This document shows positions 7,480 to 51,764 of a stretch of DNA of 64,000 bases, piece after piece; positions within the stretch are counted from its first letter, which is position 1, and the number at the start of each line of letters is the position of its first letter. Under the pieces are notes generated by a model. The model saw only the letters and a program-made list of their open reading frames with translations, was not told the origin of the DNA and made no database searches. A program made the translations under genes and the position numbers. Source of the stretch: Bacteroidales bacterium UBA1184 (GTDB lineage: Bacteria > Bacteroidota > Bacteroidia > Bacteroidales > ML635J-15); assembly GCA_002310235.1 (NCBI GenBank), contig DBYO01000035.1:418-64417 (forward strand), given 5' to 3'.

Positions 7480-7622
7480 GCCGAGCTAAAGGTTGGGCAA
7501 AAGGCCAGCAGAAGACCAGTCTTGATGTCGAACAGAAGACCAGTCCTACAGTCTACAAGACAGTTAGACTGTGAGACAACTGGACTGCTAGCCTTCGAGC
7601 CTGTTAGCCTTTGAGCCTTAGG
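7480..7622. repeat. Intergenic element copy A: [CT]AAAGG-rich half followed by about 9 phased 8-nt units CTKNNAGM
   Basis: The phased units are ctacaaga, cagttaga, ctgtgaga, caactgga, ctgctagc, cttcgagc, ctgttagc and ctttgagc (7553-7616). Copy B at 50505-50652 has the same architecture and shares some units. Confidence 0.8.
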
Positions 7623-7634
7623 TGTCGCCCTACA

Positions 7635-9470
7635 TCAATTATCCCTAACACACCTTAAACTAAGGAAACTGTCAGGTGGAAGTTTTTCATACCTCAAATC
7701 TGGAGAATAACTCGACAAATAACTATAATAAACATTATCGTTATCATACATTGTTGTACACCAGAAAAATGCATTGTTTCCAAAGCCTGTACTATAAGAT
7801 GTTCCTGCCGGCAACGCATTGAAACCTGTTTCTCCGAAATATCCACTTGACGTAAGGAGACCATCATCCCAAAGGTCTGCCTCTCCAGCCAACTTTGATC
7901 CTACATCGTAATACCTACCGCCAAGCGTATTATTTAGACGCGACCATTCCCCATAACTTGGCACATGCCAGCCATCGGGACAAATGCCCTGAACACCGCT
8001 AGGACTGGTATTGCTAGACTCTGCTCCATCCATAATTGCAGGCCAGTTATATAGATAACCATATTGCTGCACATTAGCAGAACTATCATTAGGATAATAA
8101 CGATATTTTTCTGATGTACTAGTACTGGTACTTAAGGTAGTATTTCCCACGTAGCGCAAATTCTCTGCCATCCATGTTTGCGTACCAATGGTAACGGTGG
8201 CATAGGTATTACCATCGCGCACATCGGTAAACGAACCCTGCGGATATGAAATAGTGTCGTTGCCAATATTACCACCGGATCCGCCACCGCCAGTATCCCC
8301 TCCTCCATTCTGCGACGGCAAATATACAGGTCGTATTGCCATTCCATAAGCCCTACCGTACCACCCTAAAACACATGTGTCGGGATTGTAATACATACAC
8401 ACTGCAGAACTCGGATGTTCTGGATTCAATGAGCTAGTCCAATAATACCCCTGGTCTGCAAGAGGAGTATATTCACTATCATCGTACCTAACATCAAATA
8501 GAGGTAAAAATATCTTGTTGCCATTCGGCCCAATGAAATACATACCGTCCACATAATTTATTGATGACCACTGACGAGTGCAGCTGGTTATCAACTCACT
8601 GAATTCCTCTTGCGTAGGTATTCGCCAGTTCGGGCCAAGTGTTGCGGTTGCAGCATCGTCTGATGCCTCGAGAACCATAAGGGTATCTGTAAATCCATTG
8701 TTTCCGTATTGCGACATATTGCAATATTTGGTCAATGTATTATATGTTCCGTTGCAATAATCATAAATACACCACTCAAACACAGACTTTGTTGCAGTTT
8801 CACCCCACGCGTACGCGTCGCTATAATCATTGGGAATTCTTGAACCTAAATTGCGAGTTGCCCATAGTGTTCCGCTCGGCAGACCAAGGTCAACATATTC
8901 TGGAATTTCCTCCGTATGATCATCACTGCCGCCAAAATTTATGTGGCGAGCCTCCCATTTGCCTGTTCTTTCATTATACACAAGCACATCACCATCCTGC
9001 GGATTCTCTATATCAACATCAAAGTTTACCAGTTTCTGAGCTGTAACTGCATAATTTGACGAAAAAGCATAAAAGCCGCTTGCAATTTCAACGAACCCGA
9101 GACTTGTAAAATCGCCAGCAATATCGGTTTGGTACTCTACCTGCATCCAGTAGTTTCCATTCTGCCACGGAATTTCGTCGAAAGGCACATTTGTTGAGCC
9201 ATTGCAACCACAGGCAAGCACATTACGATTAATCATAAACGACATAAAACCATTCTCGTTGGTAGTGGTCTGATGTATAGCACAATACACAGGTGTACCA
9301 TTCTGTCCACCTTCGTAGAATGTCACACGCACTGTAATGGTTCGGTTTGCTAGCGGCACATTGTCGGAATTGCGCACCGTAGCGGAAAAATTTACTGTCT
9401 GCGGAACCCCCTGCGAAAAAGCAGCGAAAGCTACGACAATTATCATAAAAAAGGAAACCAATCTCTTCAT
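7635..9470 (-). CDS. Secreted surface protein: N-terminal Ig/tail-fibre-like domain + DUF1566-like module + C-terminal FISUMP (Fibrobacter succinogenes major paralogous, TIGR02145-type) domain
   Basis: The track ORF is 7635..9506. I prefer Met13 as the start (MKRLVSFFMIIVVAFAAFSQ signal peptide) because it removes the overlap with the upstream stop at 9490. The middle module reads VDLGLPSGTLWATRNLG..YAWGE..WRIPTQEEFSEL..YWTSS..AIRPV. The C-terminal module reads DVRDGNTYATVTIGTQTWMAENL..YGYLYNW..GICPDGWHVPS..EWSRL..GFNALPAG..LRCVRD. Confidence 0.85.
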   Translation of the reverse strand: MKRLVSFFMIIVVAFAAFSQGVPQTVNFSATVRNSDNVPLANRTITVRVTFYEGGQNGTPVYCAIHQTTTNENGFMSFMINRNVLACGCNGSTNVPFDEIPWQNGNYWMQVEYQTDIAGDFTSLGFVEIASGFYAFSSNYAVTAQKLVNFDVDIENPQDGDVLVYNERTGKWEARHINFGGSDDHTEEIPEYVDLGLPSGTLWATRNLGSRIPNDYSDAYAWGETATKSVFEWCIYDYCNGTYNTLTKYCNMSQYGNNGFTDTLMVLEASDDAATATLGPNWRIPTQEEFSELITSCTRQWSSINYVDGMYFIGPNGNKIFLPLFDVRYDDSEYTPLADQGYYWTSSLNPEHPSSAVCMYYNPDTCVLGWYGRAYGMAIRPVYLPSQNGGGDTGGGGSGGNIGNDTISYPQGSFTDVRDGNTYATVTIGTQTWMAENLRYVGNTTLSTSTSTSEKYRYYPNDSSANVQQYGYLYNWPAIMDGAESSNTSPSGVQGICPDGWHVPSYGEWSRLNNTLGGRYYDVGSKLAGEADLWDDGLLTSSGYFGETGFNALPAGTSYSTGFGNNAFFWCTTMYDNDNVYYSYLSSYSPDLRYEKLPPDSFLSLRCVRDN

Positions 9471-9489
9471 AACCAAAACTTTTTTGCAA

Positions 9490-11319
9490 TTAATTATTAC
9501 GTACACACCTCACACTAAAACCATAATTTTTCGGATAATCCACTTTTTCAAAATTCACATTATCATAACTTATAATCCAATCTCCAGCACGGTCATCGCT
9601 AAACTCAGTTGACGACCAGAAATCGATTGAGTATCCCAATGGCCAATAATTTTCATAGTTACTAGCGAAAGCACCCGCGGCCAACGCATCAAATCCACTA
9701 GAACCAAATTCCGGGACTTGAGTTAAAACCCCTTGTTCCCATACCTCGGAAGCGCTTGCAAGTCGAGAAGCAACATTTTGACCTCCAACTGCAAACTGTA
9801 ACATAGACCATTCTGCATTGCTTGGCAGATGCCAGCCTTCGGGACAAATCCCCTGCACACCGCTAGGCACCGCATTGGAACTTGATTCCCCATTCATAGC
9901 CGCTATCCAGTTATACAGATAACCATAACGACGAACATTATTTTCATCGCCGACAGGATAATACCTATATGCCCTTGTATTACTTGAACTTGTACCCAAA
10001 GCAATATCGCCTTCGTAACGAAGATTTTCTGCCATCCAAGTTTGTTCTCCTATTGTAACGGTAGCATATTCGTTGCCATCGCGGCTATCGACTAAAGTTT
10101 CTCCTGGCACACCATTATGAATCGGTCGAACTCCGTGAGTTGGGTCATATATTGCTCGCACAGGGTAACCCTCTTCTCGCAAACGCGCATTTGCTATTTG
10201 GCAATAACCTGGATACCATTGAAAAGTCCAAGCGTCAGAAGGATAATCATAATCAAGGGAGCTTGTCCAATATTCAGTCCAATCATCATCATAATACAAA
10301 ACAAGATGATCTCTGTAATAATATCCTGCTATTGGAAAAAATATGCTATTGCCATTTGTTCCAGTAAATCTCTTACAATAAACACCATTCACTGTATCAT
10401 CAGAAAAAGTACAGCAAGCCATCAGTTCGTAATAATCTGCTACTGCAGGAGTTCTCCAGTTTGGGCCCCAATTTACGGTGGCAGCATCGTCCGACGGTTC
10501 CAACCAGTTAAGACTGTCAATAAAGCCATTGTACCCCCACTCTGGATATGTGCAATATTTTGTCAAATTATTGCTGTTTGCTTCCTCGCAATAGGCATAA
10601 GTACTCAATTCGTAGTTAGTCTTATTCGATGTTTCGCCCCAAGCATAATAGTTCCCACGCTCCTCAGGCGCACCAGCACCGATATTGCAAGTTGCCCACT
10701 TATTTCCACTCGGCAAACCCAAATCCACAAACTCGCGCACATCTGTAAAAATATTTCCCTGCTCAGTACTTCCACCTTCTATTTCAAAATGAAAAGGCTT
10801 CCATTTGCCAGTAGCACCGTCAAACACTAGCACGTCGCCATCACTTGCTGTCGACACATCTAGTCCGAGCCCATCAATCTTTTCAGCTACAAACGCATAA
10901 TTAGTAACCAATGAATAAAATCCACTTGATAGCTCAATATATCCCAAATCTACAAAATCTTCTGCCATATCGGACTGATATTCTATTTGCATCCAATACG
11001 CACCATCGACCCATGATATTTCATCGAAATCAATGCTTGGAGCGCCATTGCAACCATACGCAAACATATCGCGGTCGAGTCGAAACAATGCATCACCACG
11101 AGAATCTGTAACAGTCTGGTATATAGCACAATATTCGGGATTATCAACATCTGTTTCATAAAACAAAGTTACACGGACATTGACAGCTGTATTTACGATA
11201 GGAGCATCGTATGCATCGCGTATGGTTATGGAAAAGTTGACGGCCTGCGGAACACCCTGCCCCAATGCGAGCAGACTAGACCATATCAACAAACAAATCA
11301 ATGCTACAAAATATCTCAT
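9490..11319 (-). CDS. Tandem paralog of 7635..9470 with the same three-module architecture
   Basis: The 609-aa ORF has a signal peptide (LLALGQGVPQ). Its motifs are collinear with the neighbour: VDLGLPSGNKWATCNIGA..YAWGE; DSRDGNEYATVTIGEQTWMAENL..YGYLYNW..GICPEGWHLPS..GFSVRCVRNN. Confidence 0.88.
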   Translation of the reverse strand: MRYFVALICLLIWSSLLALGQGVPQAVNFSITIRDAYDAPIVNTAVNVRVTLFYETDVDNPEYCAIYQTVTDSRGDALFRLDRDMFAYGCNGAPSIDFDEISWVDGAYWMQIEYQSDMAEDFVDLGYIELSSGFYSLVTNYAFVAEKIDGLGLDVSTASDGDVLVFDGATGKWKPFHFEIEGGSTEQGNIFTDVREFVDLGLPSGNKWATCNIGAGAPEERGNYYAWGETSNKTNYELSTYAYCEEANSNNLTKYCTYPEWGYNGFIDSLNWLEPSDDAATVNWGPNWRTPAVADYYELMACCTFSDDTVNGVYCKRFTGTNGNSIFFPIAGYYYRDHLVLYYDDDWTEYWTSSLDYDYPSDAWTFQWYPGYCQIANARLREEGYPVRAIYDPTHGVRPIHNGVPGETLVDSRDGNEYATVTIGEQTWMAENLRYEGDIALGTSSSNTRAYRYYPVGDENNVRRYGYLYNWIAAMNGESSSNAVPSGVQGICPEGWHLPSNAEWSMLQFAVGGQNVASRLASASEVWEQGVLTQVPEFGSSGFDALAAGAFASNYENYWPLGYSIDFWSSTEFSDDRAGDWIISYDNVNFEKVDYPKNYGFSVRCVRNN

Positions 11320-45693: not shown

Positions 45694-45705
45694 TCGCCAC
45701 TTTCT

Positions 45706-45780
45706 GATCTGTTAGCTCAGTTGGTTTAGAGCGCTTGCTTGACAGGCAAGAGGTCACAAGTTCAAATCTTGTACAGATCA
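45706..45780 (+). tRNA. tRNA-Val (anticodon GAC)
   Basis: GATCTGTTAGCTCAGTTGGTTTAGAGCGCTTGCTTGACAGGCAAGAGGTCACAAGTTCAAATCTTGTACAGATCA folds as a cloverleaf by eye. The anticodon loop is TTGACAG. Confidence 0.9.
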
Positions 45781-45788
45781 CTTTCATT

Positions 45789-45863
45789 GGTCTGTTAGCT
45801 CAGTTGGTTCAGAGCGCTTCCTTCACACGGAAGAGGTCAACAGTTCGAATCTGCTACAGACCA
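45789..45863 (+). tRNA. tRNA-Val (anticodon CAC)
   Basis: GGTCTGTTAGCTCAGTTGGTTCAGAGCGCTTCCTTCACACGGAAGAGGTCAACAGTTCGAATCTGCTACAGACCA. The anticodon loop is TTCACAC, and the T stem has one mismatch. Confidence 0.88.
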
Positions 45864-45865
45864 CC

Positions 45866-49530: not shown

Positions 49531-50427
49531 TTAGTTTTCAAGATGCAACAACTTCAGGTTGTCGATATATATCTCGGTATTCTGTCCAACCGGGCTAATA
49601 GTATCGACTCTTACAGCAGTAAAGAACGGCTGAAACTGACCGCAATTTGAAGAGGAATTTATAATAGCACGGTTTAGATTAATATACACACGTTTCCATT
49701 TCCCGTCAGTCGGGTAAAACGTATATACATTTTCGCGCACACCACTTGTTGATGTTGCACTTTCAACTACACCGAACATTCCAAAATTGAATTTATCGTT
49801 GCACTTATAACTTATTTCGAGATAAGTTTCACCATTTTCCGAAATAGAATACACATCCGAAGCACGGCATTCAAAATATCCGCTATAATCGTCTTTCGGG
49901 ATTACCACTTTCATAGCATAACCATCGTAACCACCATCATTAGAAAGATCGAAGCCGTATGTGCTGGAATCAGACTTTTCGAACTTCGAACCTATCTGAT
50001 CGAAGTTTTCCATGAGTATAAAATTAACACCTTGTCTATACGAATAATGTGGTGTCAACTTCATGGTTGTATTAGGGGTAAGCACAGTGTCTATACTATA
50101 GTTTGTAAGCATTGGATACACATTCCTTTGGGCATCAAGACCCGATGCCTTTATCCCTGGCTCTATTTCTATGCGAACTTTGCCCGATGCGAGCACAGGC
50201 ACTTCGAACGGAATCTCGAAAACGCCAATTGTCGAAACCTTAGTGCTTCCTGCCGACAACCAGCAGTCGGATATGTTATGCAAGGCAGATCCCTGAGACG
50301 GGTCAACAATATCGATGACAGCATCATCAACGCAAATGAAAGCGGGAACTCCTTCATTAGGATCATTTTCCTTGCACGACGCAAACACCAAGACAATCGC
50401 AAACGCCAATATCAGTATTTTCTTCAT
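49531..50427 (-). CDS. Hypothetical lipoprotein
   Basis: The 298-aa ORF has the lipobox LVFASC. It lies 8 nt upstream of the sugar transferase gene. Confidence 0.65.
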   Translation of the reverse strand: MKKILILAFAIVLVFASCKENDPNEGVPAFICVDDAVIDIVDPSQGSALHNISDCWLSAGSTKVSTIGVFEIPFEVPVLASGKVRIEIEPGIKASGLDAQRNVYPMLTNYSIDTVLTPNTTMKLTPHYSYRQGVNFILMENFDQIGSKFEKSDSSTYGFDLSNDGGYDGYAMKVVIPKDDYSGYFECRASDVYSISENGETYLEISYKCNDKFNFGMFGVVESATSTSGVRENVYTFYPTDGKWKRVYINLNRAIINSSSNCGQFQPFFTAVRVDTISPVGQNTEIYIDNLKLLHLEN

Positions 50428-50454: not shown

Positions 50455-50462
50455 CAAAGGTA
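50455..50462 (-). promoter_or_regulatory. -7 box (TAccTTTG); a second candidate is tatctttg at 50485-50492
   Basis: The reverse complement of caaaggta is tacctttg, which ends 27 nt upstream of the ATG at 50427. Confidence 0.4.
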
Positions 50463-50504
50463 GATAAAATTTCCGACAGGCAGACAAAGATATCAAATAA
50501 ATTT

Positions 50505-50652
50505 CACGCACGAAGCTCCAAAGGCTTGCAGACTCAAAGGCGAACAGGCAAAAAGGTTCAAAGTCCCAAAAAAGAACAGTCTAAAAGGCTGTTAGACTGC
50601 CAGACTGTAAGCCTGCGCGACTGTGAGACTGCAAGCCTGTGAGCCTGTTAGA
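50505..50652. repeat. Intergenic element copy B: [CT]AAAGG-rich half + 9 perfectly phased 8-nt units CTGNNAGM
   Basis: The units are ctaaaagg, ctgttaga, ctgccaga, ctgtaagc, ctgcgcga, ctgtgaga, ctgcaagc, ctgtgagc and ctgttaga (50581-50652). They end 2 nt from the stop codon of 50655..51764. Confidence 0.85.
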
Positions 50653-50654
50653 CT

Positions 50655-51764
50655 TTACTCCTTCGGCAACATTACAAACTCCGACACCTTAAAAAGTTCC
50701 ACAGGCTTGGTACTATCGGGAGGAATTGCCATGATAGCCGGCTTGAAATTCTCAACATCGGCCATAAAATTTGCGATATAAAGGAAAGTGCCGTCATCTA
50801 GCCATGCCATCGAAGGTCCCTCGTCGTACGAAATATCAGTACCATCCAAGATCATCTGGTATTTTCCATCGAGACTAGCAATGCAGTACGGACCATGCGG
50901 GAAATCGCCCCAACCGGTAACAGCGCCAAAGACAACCCTGTCGCCTTTGGGTGAAATTCCGCTAAAATTGAATTCTTCTGGAGTCGATTCAAACTTCATC
51001 TTGTTGGTAAGACAAACTCCACCATTTCCCTCCGATCCGTAATAGTAGTTATACGACGATCCTTCTCTTTCTTCATCGTCATCATCAGCACCTGCCTCGT
51101 AGAAACTGGAGTAAGTAATTACTTCATCTTCTTCGTCTTCCTCATCGTTTGTCGAGCTTTCAAAATAACTATAAAGTTTTTCTATACTCTGAGAAGTCAC
51201 GAACTTGTGCGATTCATTGTCGTACACCTTTATCTTGGTAAACCAGTAACCATCCCAGCTGAAATCGTAGTTCACACCGAAATATCTGCCGTCGTCACTC
51301 ACCCTCAGTGCCGAATATGTACCGTATGTCTCTGTTATGCAATCATTACAGGACAAGTCCCAGTTGACAATCTGCTTTGGCGTTGGATCCTCCGAATCGA
51401 AGTCGATATATTTCAACACCATGGAACTGTCCTTGCATACTGAATAATACAAGCCAAGGGTGCCTGGCACAAAACTGTAATTTACGATTTCATCAGTTTC
51501 ACCTTCATACACAATAGAATCCATACGTTCCATACTGAAAAAGCAGAACTTATTTCCTCTAAAATACATGATGTCGCAATCTGCAATCTTCAGCAACGTA
51601 TCTTCCACTATGCTGTCCTCAACTATGCTGTCGGCAACAACCTTATCATCATTTGGCGTTACTGCCTTGTCTTTCGACTTGCATGAAAACGAAACGACAG
51701 ACATCATCAACACTGCACCGAACAAAAAACCGCTTACCAGATATTTTTCAAAACTCTTTATCAT
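50655..51764 (-). CDS. Hypothetical lipoprotein with acidic low-complexity insert (possibly beta-propeller-like)
   Basis: The 369-aa ORF has VVSFSC, D/E runs (NDEEDEEDE, DDDDEE) and ISPKGDRVVFG. Confidence 0.6.
   Translation of the reverse strand: MIKSFEKYLVSGFLFGAVLMMSVVSFSCKSKDKAVTPNDDKVVADSIVEDSIVEDTLLKIADCDIMYFRGNKFCFFSMERMDSIVYEGETDEIVNYSFVPGTLGLYYSVCKDSSMVLKYIDFDSEDPTPKQIVNWDLSCNDCITETYGTYSALRVSDDGRYFGVNYDFSWDGYWFTKIKVYDNESHKFVTSQSIEKLYSYFESSTNDEEDEEDEVITYSSFYEAGADDDDEEREGSSYNYYYGSEGNGGVCLTNKMKFESTPEEFNFSGISPKGDRVVFGAVTGWGDFPHGPYCIASLDGKYQMILDGTDISYDEGPSMAWLDDGTFLYIANFMADVENFKPAIMAIPPDSTKPVELFKVSEFVMLPKE

What the first reader, a model, noticed from the sequence alone, without database searches (positions are those of the whole stretch)
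50505..50652. Second copy of the 8-nt-phased element, abutting a stop codon (copy B)
Nine perfectly phased units (ctaaaagg, ctgttaga, ctgccaga, ctgtaagc, ctgcgcga, ctgtgaga, ctgcaagc, ctgtgagc, ctgttaga) run from 50581 to 50652. They end 2 nt from the TAA of 50655..51764. They are preceded by the same [CT]AAAGG-rich half seen in copy A (ccaaaggc, tcaaaggc, gcaaaaagg, tcaaagtc). The next gene's candidate -7 boxes lie just downstream on the minus strand. Two copies with conserved periodicity but divergent sequence suggest selection on the pattern rather than on the exact sequence.
Basis: seen in the sequence. Interest (0 to 1): 0.5.

Follow-up and report, generated by a model that had tools for sequence, protein, structure and literature searches.

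The report
Mirror-array octamer hairpin after a stop codon
The 8-base-periodic stretch is real: it is one of about 70 fold-back elements built from a repeated 8-base unit that sit just behind stop codons in this uncultured rumen bacterium, and one copy encloses a small gene of the kind found inside ribosomal-RNA intervening sequences; what these elements do is still unknown.

Summary
The whole stretch 50522-50657 is one lattice of 17 phased 8-nt units with the palindromic core AGNCT. All 14 AG.C words lie in one phase; the maximum in 5000 shuffles was 5.

- **Structure.** Read in the sense of the flanking genes, purine-rich units such as AGTCTAAC and AGGCTCAC start directly after the TAA. Their reverse complements, such as AGCCTTTT and AGACTGTT, follow. 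The element can therefore fold into a long imperfect hairpin.
- **Family.** The genome, an uncultured rumen Bacteroidales MAG, holds 69 such elements. They are always in this order, and 33 start within -15 to +10 nt of a stop codon.
- **Gene link.** One copy carries a PF05635 (23S-rRNA-IVS/Avd-like) gene between its arms.
- **Evolution.** The element at this locus is shared by 10 of 12 related species. It changes by gain, loss or replacement of whole units.
- **Function.** I found no arm-specific complementarity and no sense-strand folding bias. A role as a transcript-end hairpin is therefore only inferred.
- **Closest in print.** The closest published cases are the inverted GGGAATC heptamer arrays of Xanthomonas (Rehm 2015) and ORF-bearing rRNA intervening sequences.

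This scan has met the same class many times on other DNA. I rate it a new variant of a known but unexplained kind.

The parts
50522..50657 (-). Copy B: whole mirror-array element, 17 phased 8-nt units with core AGNCT. The last unit slot holds the stop codon of the upstream gene.
   Evidence: Phased display; shuffle test; folds to -60.5 kcal/mol on the minus strand (z -3.96) and -54.9 on the plus strand (z -3.56).
50591..50654 (-). Stop-proximal arm in gene sense: eight purine-rich 'F' units (AGTCTAAC, AGGCTCAC, AGGCTTGC and similar).
   Evidence: gene-sense phasing. The same unit types follow stop codons at 42 junctions in the genome.
50522..50590 (-). Promoter-proximal arm in gene sense: nine 'R' units (AGCCTTTT, AGACTGTT, ... 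AGCCTTTG), reverse complements of F units and partly eroded at core position 1.
   Evidence: This end is alignable between species.
50565..50601 (-). Apex stem-loop (10 pairs, 7-nt loop) followed by CTTTTTTGGG: an intrinsic-terminator-like site in the sense of the flanking genes.
   Evidence: Consensus scan; sequence checked. No such site in copy A.
50655..50657 (-). TAA stop codon of the ORF 50655..51764 (369 aa, no Pfam hit), directly abutting the first core.
50493..50508 (-). Box CGTGAAATTTATTTGA between the element and the promoter. It is kept in the orthologous loci that carry the element; only its AAATTTATTT core persists in the two genomes that lack the element.
   Evidence: 10 element-bearing genomes, with small variations; metagenome contigs.
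50455..50488 (-). Candidate Bacteroidetes-type promoter of the ORF 49531..50427: -33 TTTG (50488-50485) and -7 TACCTTTG (50462-50455). The ATG is at 50427-50425.
   Evidence: Read from the sequence. The consensus TTTG/TAnnTTTG is from established knowledge of Bacteroides promoters. Not tested.
7502..7621 (-). Copy A: same family. F-type and AGAAGACC units are followed by R units (AGCCTTCG, AGCCTGTT, AGCCTTTG). It ends 13 nt from the TGA of the ORF 7635..9506.

Best explanation
**What it is.** Copy B is a non-coding 'mirror-array hairpin'. It is a run of purine-rich 8-nt units (core AGKCT, tail mostly A-rich) followed by a run of their reverse complements, all on one lattice. Either DNA strand, or the RNA, can therefore fold back on itself.

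**What it belongs to.** It is one member of a family of about 69 such arrays confined to a subclade of one genus of uncultured rumen Bacteroidales. It is the empty form of an array-armed cassette. Elsewhere in the same genome that cassette carries a PF05635 (23S-rRNA intervening-sequence / Avd-like four-helix-bundle) gene in its loop.

**Shown.**
- The lattice and the fixed F-then-R order.
- The position right behind stop codons.
- Persistence at orthologous loci.
- Evolution by whole-unit indels and unit replacement.
- The PF05635 link.

**Inferred.**
- The array was acquired in an ancestor of the subclade.
- It survives because it sits where it does no harm, and it grows or shrinks by 8-nt steps (slippage or conversion).
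- When transcribed with the upstream gene it forms a 3'-end stem-loop. That stem-loop ends, processes (RNase III, as for rRNA intervening sequences) or insulates the upstream transcript from the promoter that begins about 30 nt further on.
- In copy B the apex stem plus U-tract gives this a conventional terminator shape.

**Unknown.** How arrays reach new sites.
For: - **Lattice and significance:**
- **Period 8 is specific genome-wide:** phased AG.C runs of at least 5 of 10 units are found at hundreds of start positions for period 8. Periods 6, 7, 9, 10 and 11 give 0-2 and period 12 gives 50. There are 69 elements, and none shows a run of R units followed by a run of F units.
- **Stop-codon position:** 42 stop-codon junctions, 33 of them within -15 to +10 nt. 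In several the stop codon lies inside a unit, as in AGGC-TAA-A.
- **Folding:** z about -4 on both strands, and about -2.7 to -4.8 in six orthologues folded that carry the element, but about 0 in the two genomes that lack it.
- **Orthologous locus:** the element is present in 10 of 12 genomes at 65-230 nt. The apex and the promoter-proximal end are alignable. Four-fold-site identity of the flanking gene is 0.48-0.72.
- **Whole-unit turnover:** a clean 16-nt indel and replaced stop-proximal units between near-identical metagenome contigs.
- **PF05635 gene between AGNCT arms:** at G000 contig 2, 45507-46075.
- **Same arms elsewhere:** the same gene with the same arms sits at the syntenic locus in nine other genomes of the genus. 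All 42 of 43 PF05635 relatives with enough flanking sequence have periodic 7- or 8-nt arrays on both sides, mirrored in most, with clade-specific units.
- **Terminator-like evidence:**
  - An apex site in copy B.
  - At a convergent-gene locus the element is replaced in one species by a canonical A-tract/hairpin/T-tract terminator.
  - Canonical terminator-like sites are rarer downstream of genes that carry an element (5/45 against 245/919).
Against: - Real arm pairs fold no better than chimeras of arms taken from different elements (mean fraction better 0.43). Complementarity is therefore generic to the unit, not tuned per element.
- There is no sense-versus-antisense folding bias in 42 co-directional elements (21 against 20, Wilcoxon p 0.68). 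An RNA hairpin under selection usually shows such a bias through G-U pairs.
- Copy A and most other copies lack a U-tract.
- 11 of 69 elements lie between divergent genes, where no transcript ends. My gene calls are crude: ORFs of at least 100 aa.
- If only a hairpin were needed, the strict 8-nt lattice would be unexplained.
- No insertion junction, target duplication or enzyme was seen.
Confidence: 0.55

Rival explanations
1. The arrays are selfish or neutral by-product DNA with no role for the host. A generative process (8-nt slippage, conversion between arrays, or an unknown insertion mechanism tied to the PF05635 cassette) keeps regenerating them. They are seen only where they are tolerated, mainly directly behind stop codons.
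For: - Complementarity is generic rather than arm-specific.
- There is no strand bias in folding.
- Near-identical strains show whole-unit indels and unit replacement.
- Neighbouring intergenic regions are mosaics of several other periodic families.
- The element is absent from the orthologous site in G008 and G010 with no structured substitute.
- 65% of F units carry a stop triplet, so encroaching on a gene end is cheap.
Against: - The element is kept at the same site in 10 of 12 species, although four-fold sites have diverged to 0.48-0.72 identity.
- Canonical terminators are depleted behind element-bearing genes, and one case shows substitution by a canonical terminator.
- Neither point is decisive.
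Confidence: 0.3
2. The array is a multi-site docking platform. A protein binds the repeated AGNCT units on DNA or RNA and marks or regulates gene boundaries. The protein could be the ring-forming PF05635 protein encoded between identical arms on contig 2, or another factor.
For: - The core AGNCT is kept while the 3-nt spacer and the middle base vary.
- The strict lattice is not needed for a plain hairpin.
- PF05635 genes sit between arrays whose unit is specific to the protein clade across genera.
- The two PF05635 genes of this genome are flanked by the two main dispersed octamer families, AGNCT and TTCAAA-type.
- Close orthologues of the contig-2 protein are found in 10 of 14 array-bearing genomes against 1 of 25 array-free genomes.
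Against: - The gene-array correlation is confounded by phylogeny, because it rests on one subclade. It is also expected from simple co-inheritance of gene and arms.
- Another clade's heptamer arms are not dispersed at all.
- A dispersed GTTGAAA heptamer family has no PF05635 gene in this assembly.
- Four array-bearing genomes lack the gene.
- No binding data exist.
- A note from this scan records that part of an earlier 'protein reads its repeats' claim fell on later checking.
Confidence: 0.2
3. The element is a REP/BIME-type or MITE-type mobile element moved by a transposase encoded in the genome.
For: - It is a dispersed, intergenic, palindromic family of about 70 copies.
- The genome encodes one Y1 (RAYT/IS200-like) transposase.
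Against: - The Y1 transposase gene is flanked by a different repeat, GGTTACCCC-GTA-GGGGTTTC-type mini-hairpins, and not by AGNCT arrays.
- There are no near-identical copies. The best intragenomic match to copy B is 86% over 70 nt.
- No terminal inverted repeat distinct from the array and no target duplication was seen.
Confidence: 0.05
4. The element is a non-B DNA or G-quadruplex-forming repeat, as proposed for the GGGAATC arrays of Xanthomonas.
For: It shows the same placement grammar as those arrays: the purine-rich strand is on the coding strand just behind the stop, and arrays occur as inverted pairs (PMC4692102).
Against: The units have no G-tracts, with at most GG. A G-quadruplex is therefore impossible. 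Cruciform extrusion remains possible but untested.
Confidence: 0.03

Closest known systems
Inverted heptamer SSR arrays (GGGAATC) of Xanthomonas and GGGGA(C/T)T of Nostoc (Rehm et al. 2015, PMC4692102), and more loosely the cyanobacterial STRR heptamers
   Same: - Short tandem units, non-coding, about 180 arrays per genome.
- 70-75 convergent pairs able to form stem-loops.
- The purine-rich strand lies on the coding strand within 50 bp of the stop codon, or overlaps it.
- Position is conserved between species while unit number changes (compared).
   Different: - Here the unit is 8 nt with a palindromic core and no G-tract, so the G-quadruplex explanation cannot apply.
- The phylum is different (Bacteroidota).
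- Here one copy carries a PF05635 gene, a link that paper does not make.
ORF-bearing intervening sequences of 23S rRNA (Coxiella burnetii, Leptospira; Warrier et al. 2016, PMC4990558)
   Same: A PF05635 (S23p) ORF lies in the loop of a long stem formed by terminal inverted repeats, with tandem heptamers inside the element. Origin and mobility are unexplained. The contig-2 copy here has the same build.
   Different: - Copy B is empty and lies between protein-coding genes, not in rRNA.
- Its stem is made entirely of periodic units and is much less perfect.
- RNase III cleavage is shown for the Coxiella element and untested here.
REP/BIME elements and Correia-type MITEs
   Same: These are dispersed intergenic palindromes behind genes, transcribed into 3' hairpins that can affect termination and mRNA stability. 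This comparison rests on my own knowledge and was not tested here.
   Different: - The AGNCT arrays have no tandem-unit-free palindrome, no conserved head and no cognate RAYT next to them.
- There are no near-identical copies.
TAACTGA intergenic direct repeats of Beggiatoaceae, some Cyanobacteria and Bacteroidetes (MacGregor 2015, PMC4679880)
   Same: These are short periodic intergenic arrays at gene boundaries. The forward repeats give stop codons in all frames and sometimes overlap the stop of the upstream ORF.
   Different: They are mostly direct repeats placed just upstream of start codons. Only one inverted case is reported, and no hairpin architecture.

Membership tests
Mirror-array (inverted SSR) intergenic elements as in Rehm 2015 | Tandem short units in two convergent arrays, with the purine-rich strand on the coding strand just behind the stop codon. 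| tested here: met
   The order is F then R in the 69 elements; no run of R units is followed by a run of F units. 33 of 42 junctions lie within -15 to +10 nt of a stop, always F in gene sense.
Mirror-array (inverted SSR) intergenic elements as in Rehm 2015 | G-tracts able to form a G-quadruplex. | tested here: not met
   The units AGGCTAAC, AGCCTGTT and similar have no GGG run.
IVS-type PF05635 cassette | A PF05635 ORF in the loop. | tested here: not met
   Copy B has no ORF between its arms. The contig-2 copy of the same array family does: PF05635 E 1.1e-29, 114 aa.
IVS-type PF05635 cassette | Terminal inverted repeats forming a long stem, with tandem short repeats. | tested here: met
   All 42 of 43 PF05635 relatives with enough flank have periodic 7-8-nt arrays on both sides, mirrored in most.
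IVS-type PF05635 cassette | The stem is cleaved by RNase III. | not testable with these tools
   This needs an RNase III assay or 5'/3' end mapping.
Intrinsic (Rho-independent) terminator | A G+C-rich stem-loop followed directly by a U-tract in the sense of the upstream gene. | tested here: inconclusive
   Copy B's apex meets a loose consensus (10 pairs, only 3 G-C, then CTTTTTTGGG). Copy A has none. Only 5 of 45 element-bearing gene ends have any such site.
REP/BIME with RAYT | A cognate Y1 transposase gene flanked by the repeat. | tested here: not met
   The single PF01797 gene (contig 13, 5139-5601) is flanked by a different mini-hairpin repeat.
MITE | Near-identical copies with terminal inverted repeats and target-site duplications. 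| tested here: not met
   The best intragenomic match is 86% over 70 nt. No duplications appear at the junctions inspected. This was not checked systematically.
Rfam RNA families | A match to a curated covariance model. | tested here: not met
   Nothing reaches gathering score. The only hit is a sub-threshold match to a plant miRNA hairpin model, 24.5 bits against a gathering score of 65.

The most novel reading that the evidence does not exclude
The AGNCT arrays and the PF05635 protein encoded between identical arms form a cognate protein-repeat system. The ring-forming four-helix-bundle protein would recognise the 7-8-nt units of its own clade, on RNA or DNA. The dispersed empty arrays behind about 40 stop codons would then be a lineage-specific gene-boundary regulon, or the footprint of a new, enzyme-less way of propagating repeats. 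This would give the long-orphan IVS-protein family a function.
Probability: 0.12. Interest if true: 0.85.

Novelty: new variant of a known kind. Interest (0 to 1): 0.5.

Why it matters
Short periodic inverted arrays behind stop codons have now been seen in Xanthomonas, cyanobacteria and, here, rumen Bacteroidales, with the same placement grammar but unrelated unit sequences. This family has no G-tracts. That removes the only published explanation (G-quadruplexes) as a general one and points to something common to the architecture.

The physical link to PF05635 genes connects these arrays to the unexplained intervening sequences of 23S rRNA. It offers a testable partner for a very large orphan protein family.

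There is also a practical consequence. The R-type arms often stay open in a reading frame and cause false N-terminal extensions of the next gene in annotation. The arrays also define transcript boundaries that gene-expression models of gut and rumen Bacteroidales currently ignore.

Tried and rejected
- **Chance or low complexity:** rejected by shuffles and by the period-specific genome scan.
- **Known RNA family:** none.
- **Phage or plasmid-like origin:** no phage match.
- **Arm-specific co-variation as evidence for a selected hairpin:** real arms fold no better than chimeric arms.
- **Sense-strand G-U bias as evidence for an RNA role:** none.
- **REP/RAYT:** the only Y1 transposase has a different repeat.
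- **'Every PF05635 clade has dispersed empty arrays':** false for the AAGGTRA heptamer clade, whose arrays occur only next to the gene.
- **'Every dispersed family has a PF05635 gene':** not supported, because the GTTGAAA heptamer family has none in this assembly.
- **AGNCT-type arrays in distant Bacteroidota next to PF05635:** no such gene lies within 1.5 kb in any of 5 loci.
- **Clean empty site for copy B:** G008 and G010 have unrelated sequence there instead, so no insertion junction could be defined.
- **Exact-match metagenome scan with the gene's 3' end:** found nothing. A degenerate scan with the conserved box gave 5 contigs.

Full report
**The sequence.** The finding lies in the 227-nt gap between two minus-strand ORFs. 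One is 50655..51764 (369 aa, no Pfam hit), whose TAA reads TTA at 50655-50657. The other is 49531..50427 (298 aa, no Pfam hit).

However, the periodicity runs through the 'AAAGG-rich half' as well. 50522-50657 is 17 units on a single 8-nt lattice with the core AG.C(T). All 14 AG.C words in 50505-50654 share one phase. In 5000 dinucleotide shuffles the best-phase count had mean 1.6 and maximum 5. Lag-8 identity is 0.56 against 0.26 +/- 0.04.

The core AGNCT is its own reverse complement. The left-hand units on the plus strand are the reverse complements of the right-hand ones. Read in the sense of the genes, eight purine-rich 'F' units (AGTCTAAC, AGGCTCAC, AGGCTTGC and similar) start directly after the TAA. 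Nine 'R' units follow (AGCCTTTT, AGACTGTT, ... AGCCTTTG).

The element therefore folds into a long imperfect hairpin on either strand: -60.5 kcal/mol with z -3.96 on the minus strand, and -54.9 with z -3.56 on the plus strand. Copy A (about 7502-7621) is built the same way.

**The family in this genome.** The window is contig 11 of a 2.8-Mb, 53-contig assembly. Its closest relatives are uncultured rumen Bacteroidales MAGs from deer, yak and buffalo.

Phased AG.C runs are common at period 8 and almost absent at periods 6, 7, 9, 10 and 11. I counted 69 elements. The commonest units are AGGCTAAC, AGGCTAAA and AGTCTAAC (F), and AGCCTGTT, AGCCTTTT and AGACTGTT (R). The order is F then R; no R run is followed by an F run. 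Some elements show only one arm.

With crude gene calls (ORFs of at least 100 aa), 40 elements lie between co-directional genes, 14 between convergent genes and 11 between divergent genes. At 42 junctions an array begins near a stop codon, and at 33 of them it begins within -15 to +10 nt. The array is always F-type in the sense of that gene. In several cases the stop codon is part of a unit, as in AGGC-TAA-A. About 90-130 nt are usually left before the next start codon.

In copy B that space holds a box, CGTGAAATTTATTTGA, kept in the orthologous loci that carry the element. It also holds a candidate -33/-7 promoter.

A variant unit containing GAAGACC is 19-fold enriched in the elements and sits between the arms. 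Copy A has two of these. Copy B has none, but its orthologues in G003 and G051 do.

**Relatives.** The orthologous locus was found in 12 genomes of the genus. Ten carry the element, at 65-230 nt. Unit content and number differ, but the lattice and fold-back are kept. The apex (AGTCTGGC-AGTCTAAC-AGCCTT.T-AGACT) and the promoter-proximal end are alignable. G008 and G010 instead have about 80 nt of unrelated, unstructured sequence there.

Four-fold degenerate sites of the flanking gene are 0.48-0.72 identical, so the element has been held at this site over substantial divergence.

Metagenome contigs close to G021 show how it changes. One differs by a clean 16-nt (two-unit) deletion. Another has different stop-proximal units on an otherwise identical element.

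Arrays of at least five perfect cores occur in 14 of 39 genomes of the genus, with 0 hits for the reversed-pattern control. Among 400 other Bacteroidota genomes only 5 have any, each with a single homogeneous array.

**Link to PF05635.** Earlier notes of this scan led me to check PF05635. I searched the genome for that family and found two genes above the cut-off.
- The gene on contig 2 (114 aa) lies between an F arm that starts at the stop of the upstream gene and an R arm of AGACTGCG/AGACTGTC units. This is the same family as copy B.
- The second gene, on contig 5, lies between arms of a different octamer (TTTGAAAA / AATTATCA types). That octamer is the other dispersed family of this genome.

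The contig-2 gene with AGNCT arms is at the same syntenic site in nine other genomes of the genus. In five others the gene and R arm are missing from that site. A hairpin of yet another array family (GTTTCT/AGAAAC) takes their place, and three of these genomes keep the first F units.

The 42 of 43 PF05635 relatives (36-99% identity) fetched from named genomes that had enough flank all have periodic 7- or 8-nt arrays on both sides, mirrored in most. The unit is specific to the protein clade:
- AGKCT octamers at 76% identity or more;
- GTC.AC-type heptamers at 55-64%;
- CCGAGTK heptamers in Cytophagales;
- GATTTAAA octamers in Chryseobacterium.

This ties copy B to the array-armed PF05635 cassette as its empty form. 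It does not show that the protein acts on the arrays, for four reasons:
- Gene and arms are inherited together.
- The correlation between gene and dispersed arrays (10/14 against 1/25 genomes) rests on one subclade.
- One clade's arms are not dispersed at all.
- One dispersed heptamer family has no such gene in this assembly.

**Tests of function.** Three observations favour a transcript-end role:
- Copy B's apex is a stem-loop followed by CTTTTTTGGG in the gene sense.
- At a convergent-gene locus shared by four species, a fifth has a canonical A-tract/hairpin/T-tract terminator in place of the element.
- Canonical terminator-like sites are less frequent behind genes that carry an element (5/45 against 245/919).

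Four observations count against it:
- Arms of one element fold with each other no better than with arms of other elements.
- Folding energy shows no sense-strand advantage in 42 co-directional elements.
- Copy A has no U-tract.
- Some elements lie between divergent genes.

RNA data could not be consulted. I therefore treat the fold-back build and the unit-wise evolution as shown, and the terminator, processing or insulator role as an inference with less than even odds on its own. A purely selfish or neutral reading and a protein-docking reading remain open.

**Comparison with what is known.** No Rfam family matches. The genome's only Y1 transposase is flanked by a different mini-hairpin repeat. 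There are no near-identical copies. REP/RAYT and MITE membership are therefore not supported.

The closest description in print is Rehm et al. 2015 (PMC4692102). That paper reports the following:
- GGGAATC heptamer arrays in Xanthomonas;
- 70-75 convergent pairs per genome;
- the G-rich strand on the coding strand within 50 bp of the stop, or overlapping it;
- positions conserved between species while unit numbers change.

The authors explained those arrays by G-quadruplexes, which the AGNCT units cannot form.

The other close relative is the ORF-bearing 23S rRNA intervening sequence: a PF05635 ORF in a 28-bp stem with tandem heptamers, cut by RNase III (Warrier et al. 2016, PMC4990558). I found no paper in the held library that connects dispersed intergenic arrays with PF05635 cassettes.

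This scan has reported the same class on many other genomes. Its own later checks priced the 'mobile cassette' reading at about 40-50 in 100.

**Verdict.** The element is a new octamer, non-G-rich, Bacteroidales variant of a known but unexplained kind of gene-boundary repeat. Its function and its means of spread are unresolved.

Noticed in passing
G000 contig 14, 50038-50710 (outside the window): Two direct (not mirrored) F arrays of 24 and 9 AGGCT units. Each is preceded by the same 20-nt word (aacaggcggacggacggggc). Together they flank a 330-nt G+C-rich segment with several perfect small palindromes and no ORF.
   Followed up: no
G000 contig 5, 978-1481; also contigs 14, 46, 48, 50, 51: A second dispersed octamer family (TTCAAATC / GATTCAAA types, about 20 loci) forms the arms of the genome's second PF05635 gene (129 aa). 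It occurs in the same 13-genome subclade. In contig 46 at 69154-69300 it directly adjoins an AGGCT array.
   Followed up: partly
G000 contigs 12, 14, 31, 34, 38, 46, 47, 49: A dispersed heptamer family, GTTGAAA / TTTCAAC (about 15 loci), has no PF05635 gene found nearby in this assembly.
   Followed up: no
G000 contig 13, 4950-5660: The genome's only Y1 (RAYT/IS200-like) transposase gene (PF01797, E 8.7e-28) is flanked by mini-hairpins of the type GGTTACCCC-GTA-GGGGTTTC. This is a different repeat family from the one studied here.
   Followed up: partly
Syntenic site between the upstream gene ending ...FLEQFVAAY and a hydrolase gene (G000 contig 2, 45490-46075; loci L071-L075): This site is a hotspot. 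It holds the PF05635 cassette in ten genomes. In five others it holds a GTTTCT/AGAAAC-array hairpin with a central 32-nt perfect palindrome, with the first AGGCT units left behind in three of them.
   Followed up: partly
Copy A 7510-7550; 17 of the 69 elements: The unit variant AGAAGACC (GAAGACC is 30 times in elements against 1.6 expected) sits at the centre of elements, often twice at 16- or 24-nt spacing, sometimes next to GACAGAT. The Coxiella IVS has AGAAGA followed by GACAGAT heptamers before its PF05635 ORF. This is possibly more than coincidence.
   Followed up: no
G000 contig 2, 45914-46303: R-type arrays often stay open in a reading frame. The longest ORF of the downstream hydrolase gene therefore runs back through the array, a likely source of false N-terminal extensions in annotation.
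   Followed up: no
G000 contig 46, 66898-67024 and orthologues: The first AGGCT core of this convergent-gene element is the last two codons plus stop of the upstream gene (GAA GGC TAA). It is present even in the species that lacks the array, so arrays may be seeded from, or stop at, a native AGGCT-TAA gene end.
   Followed up: partly
window 45697-45864: There is a tandem duplication of a 75-nt tRNA gene with an 83-nt period at 82% identity.
   Followed up: no
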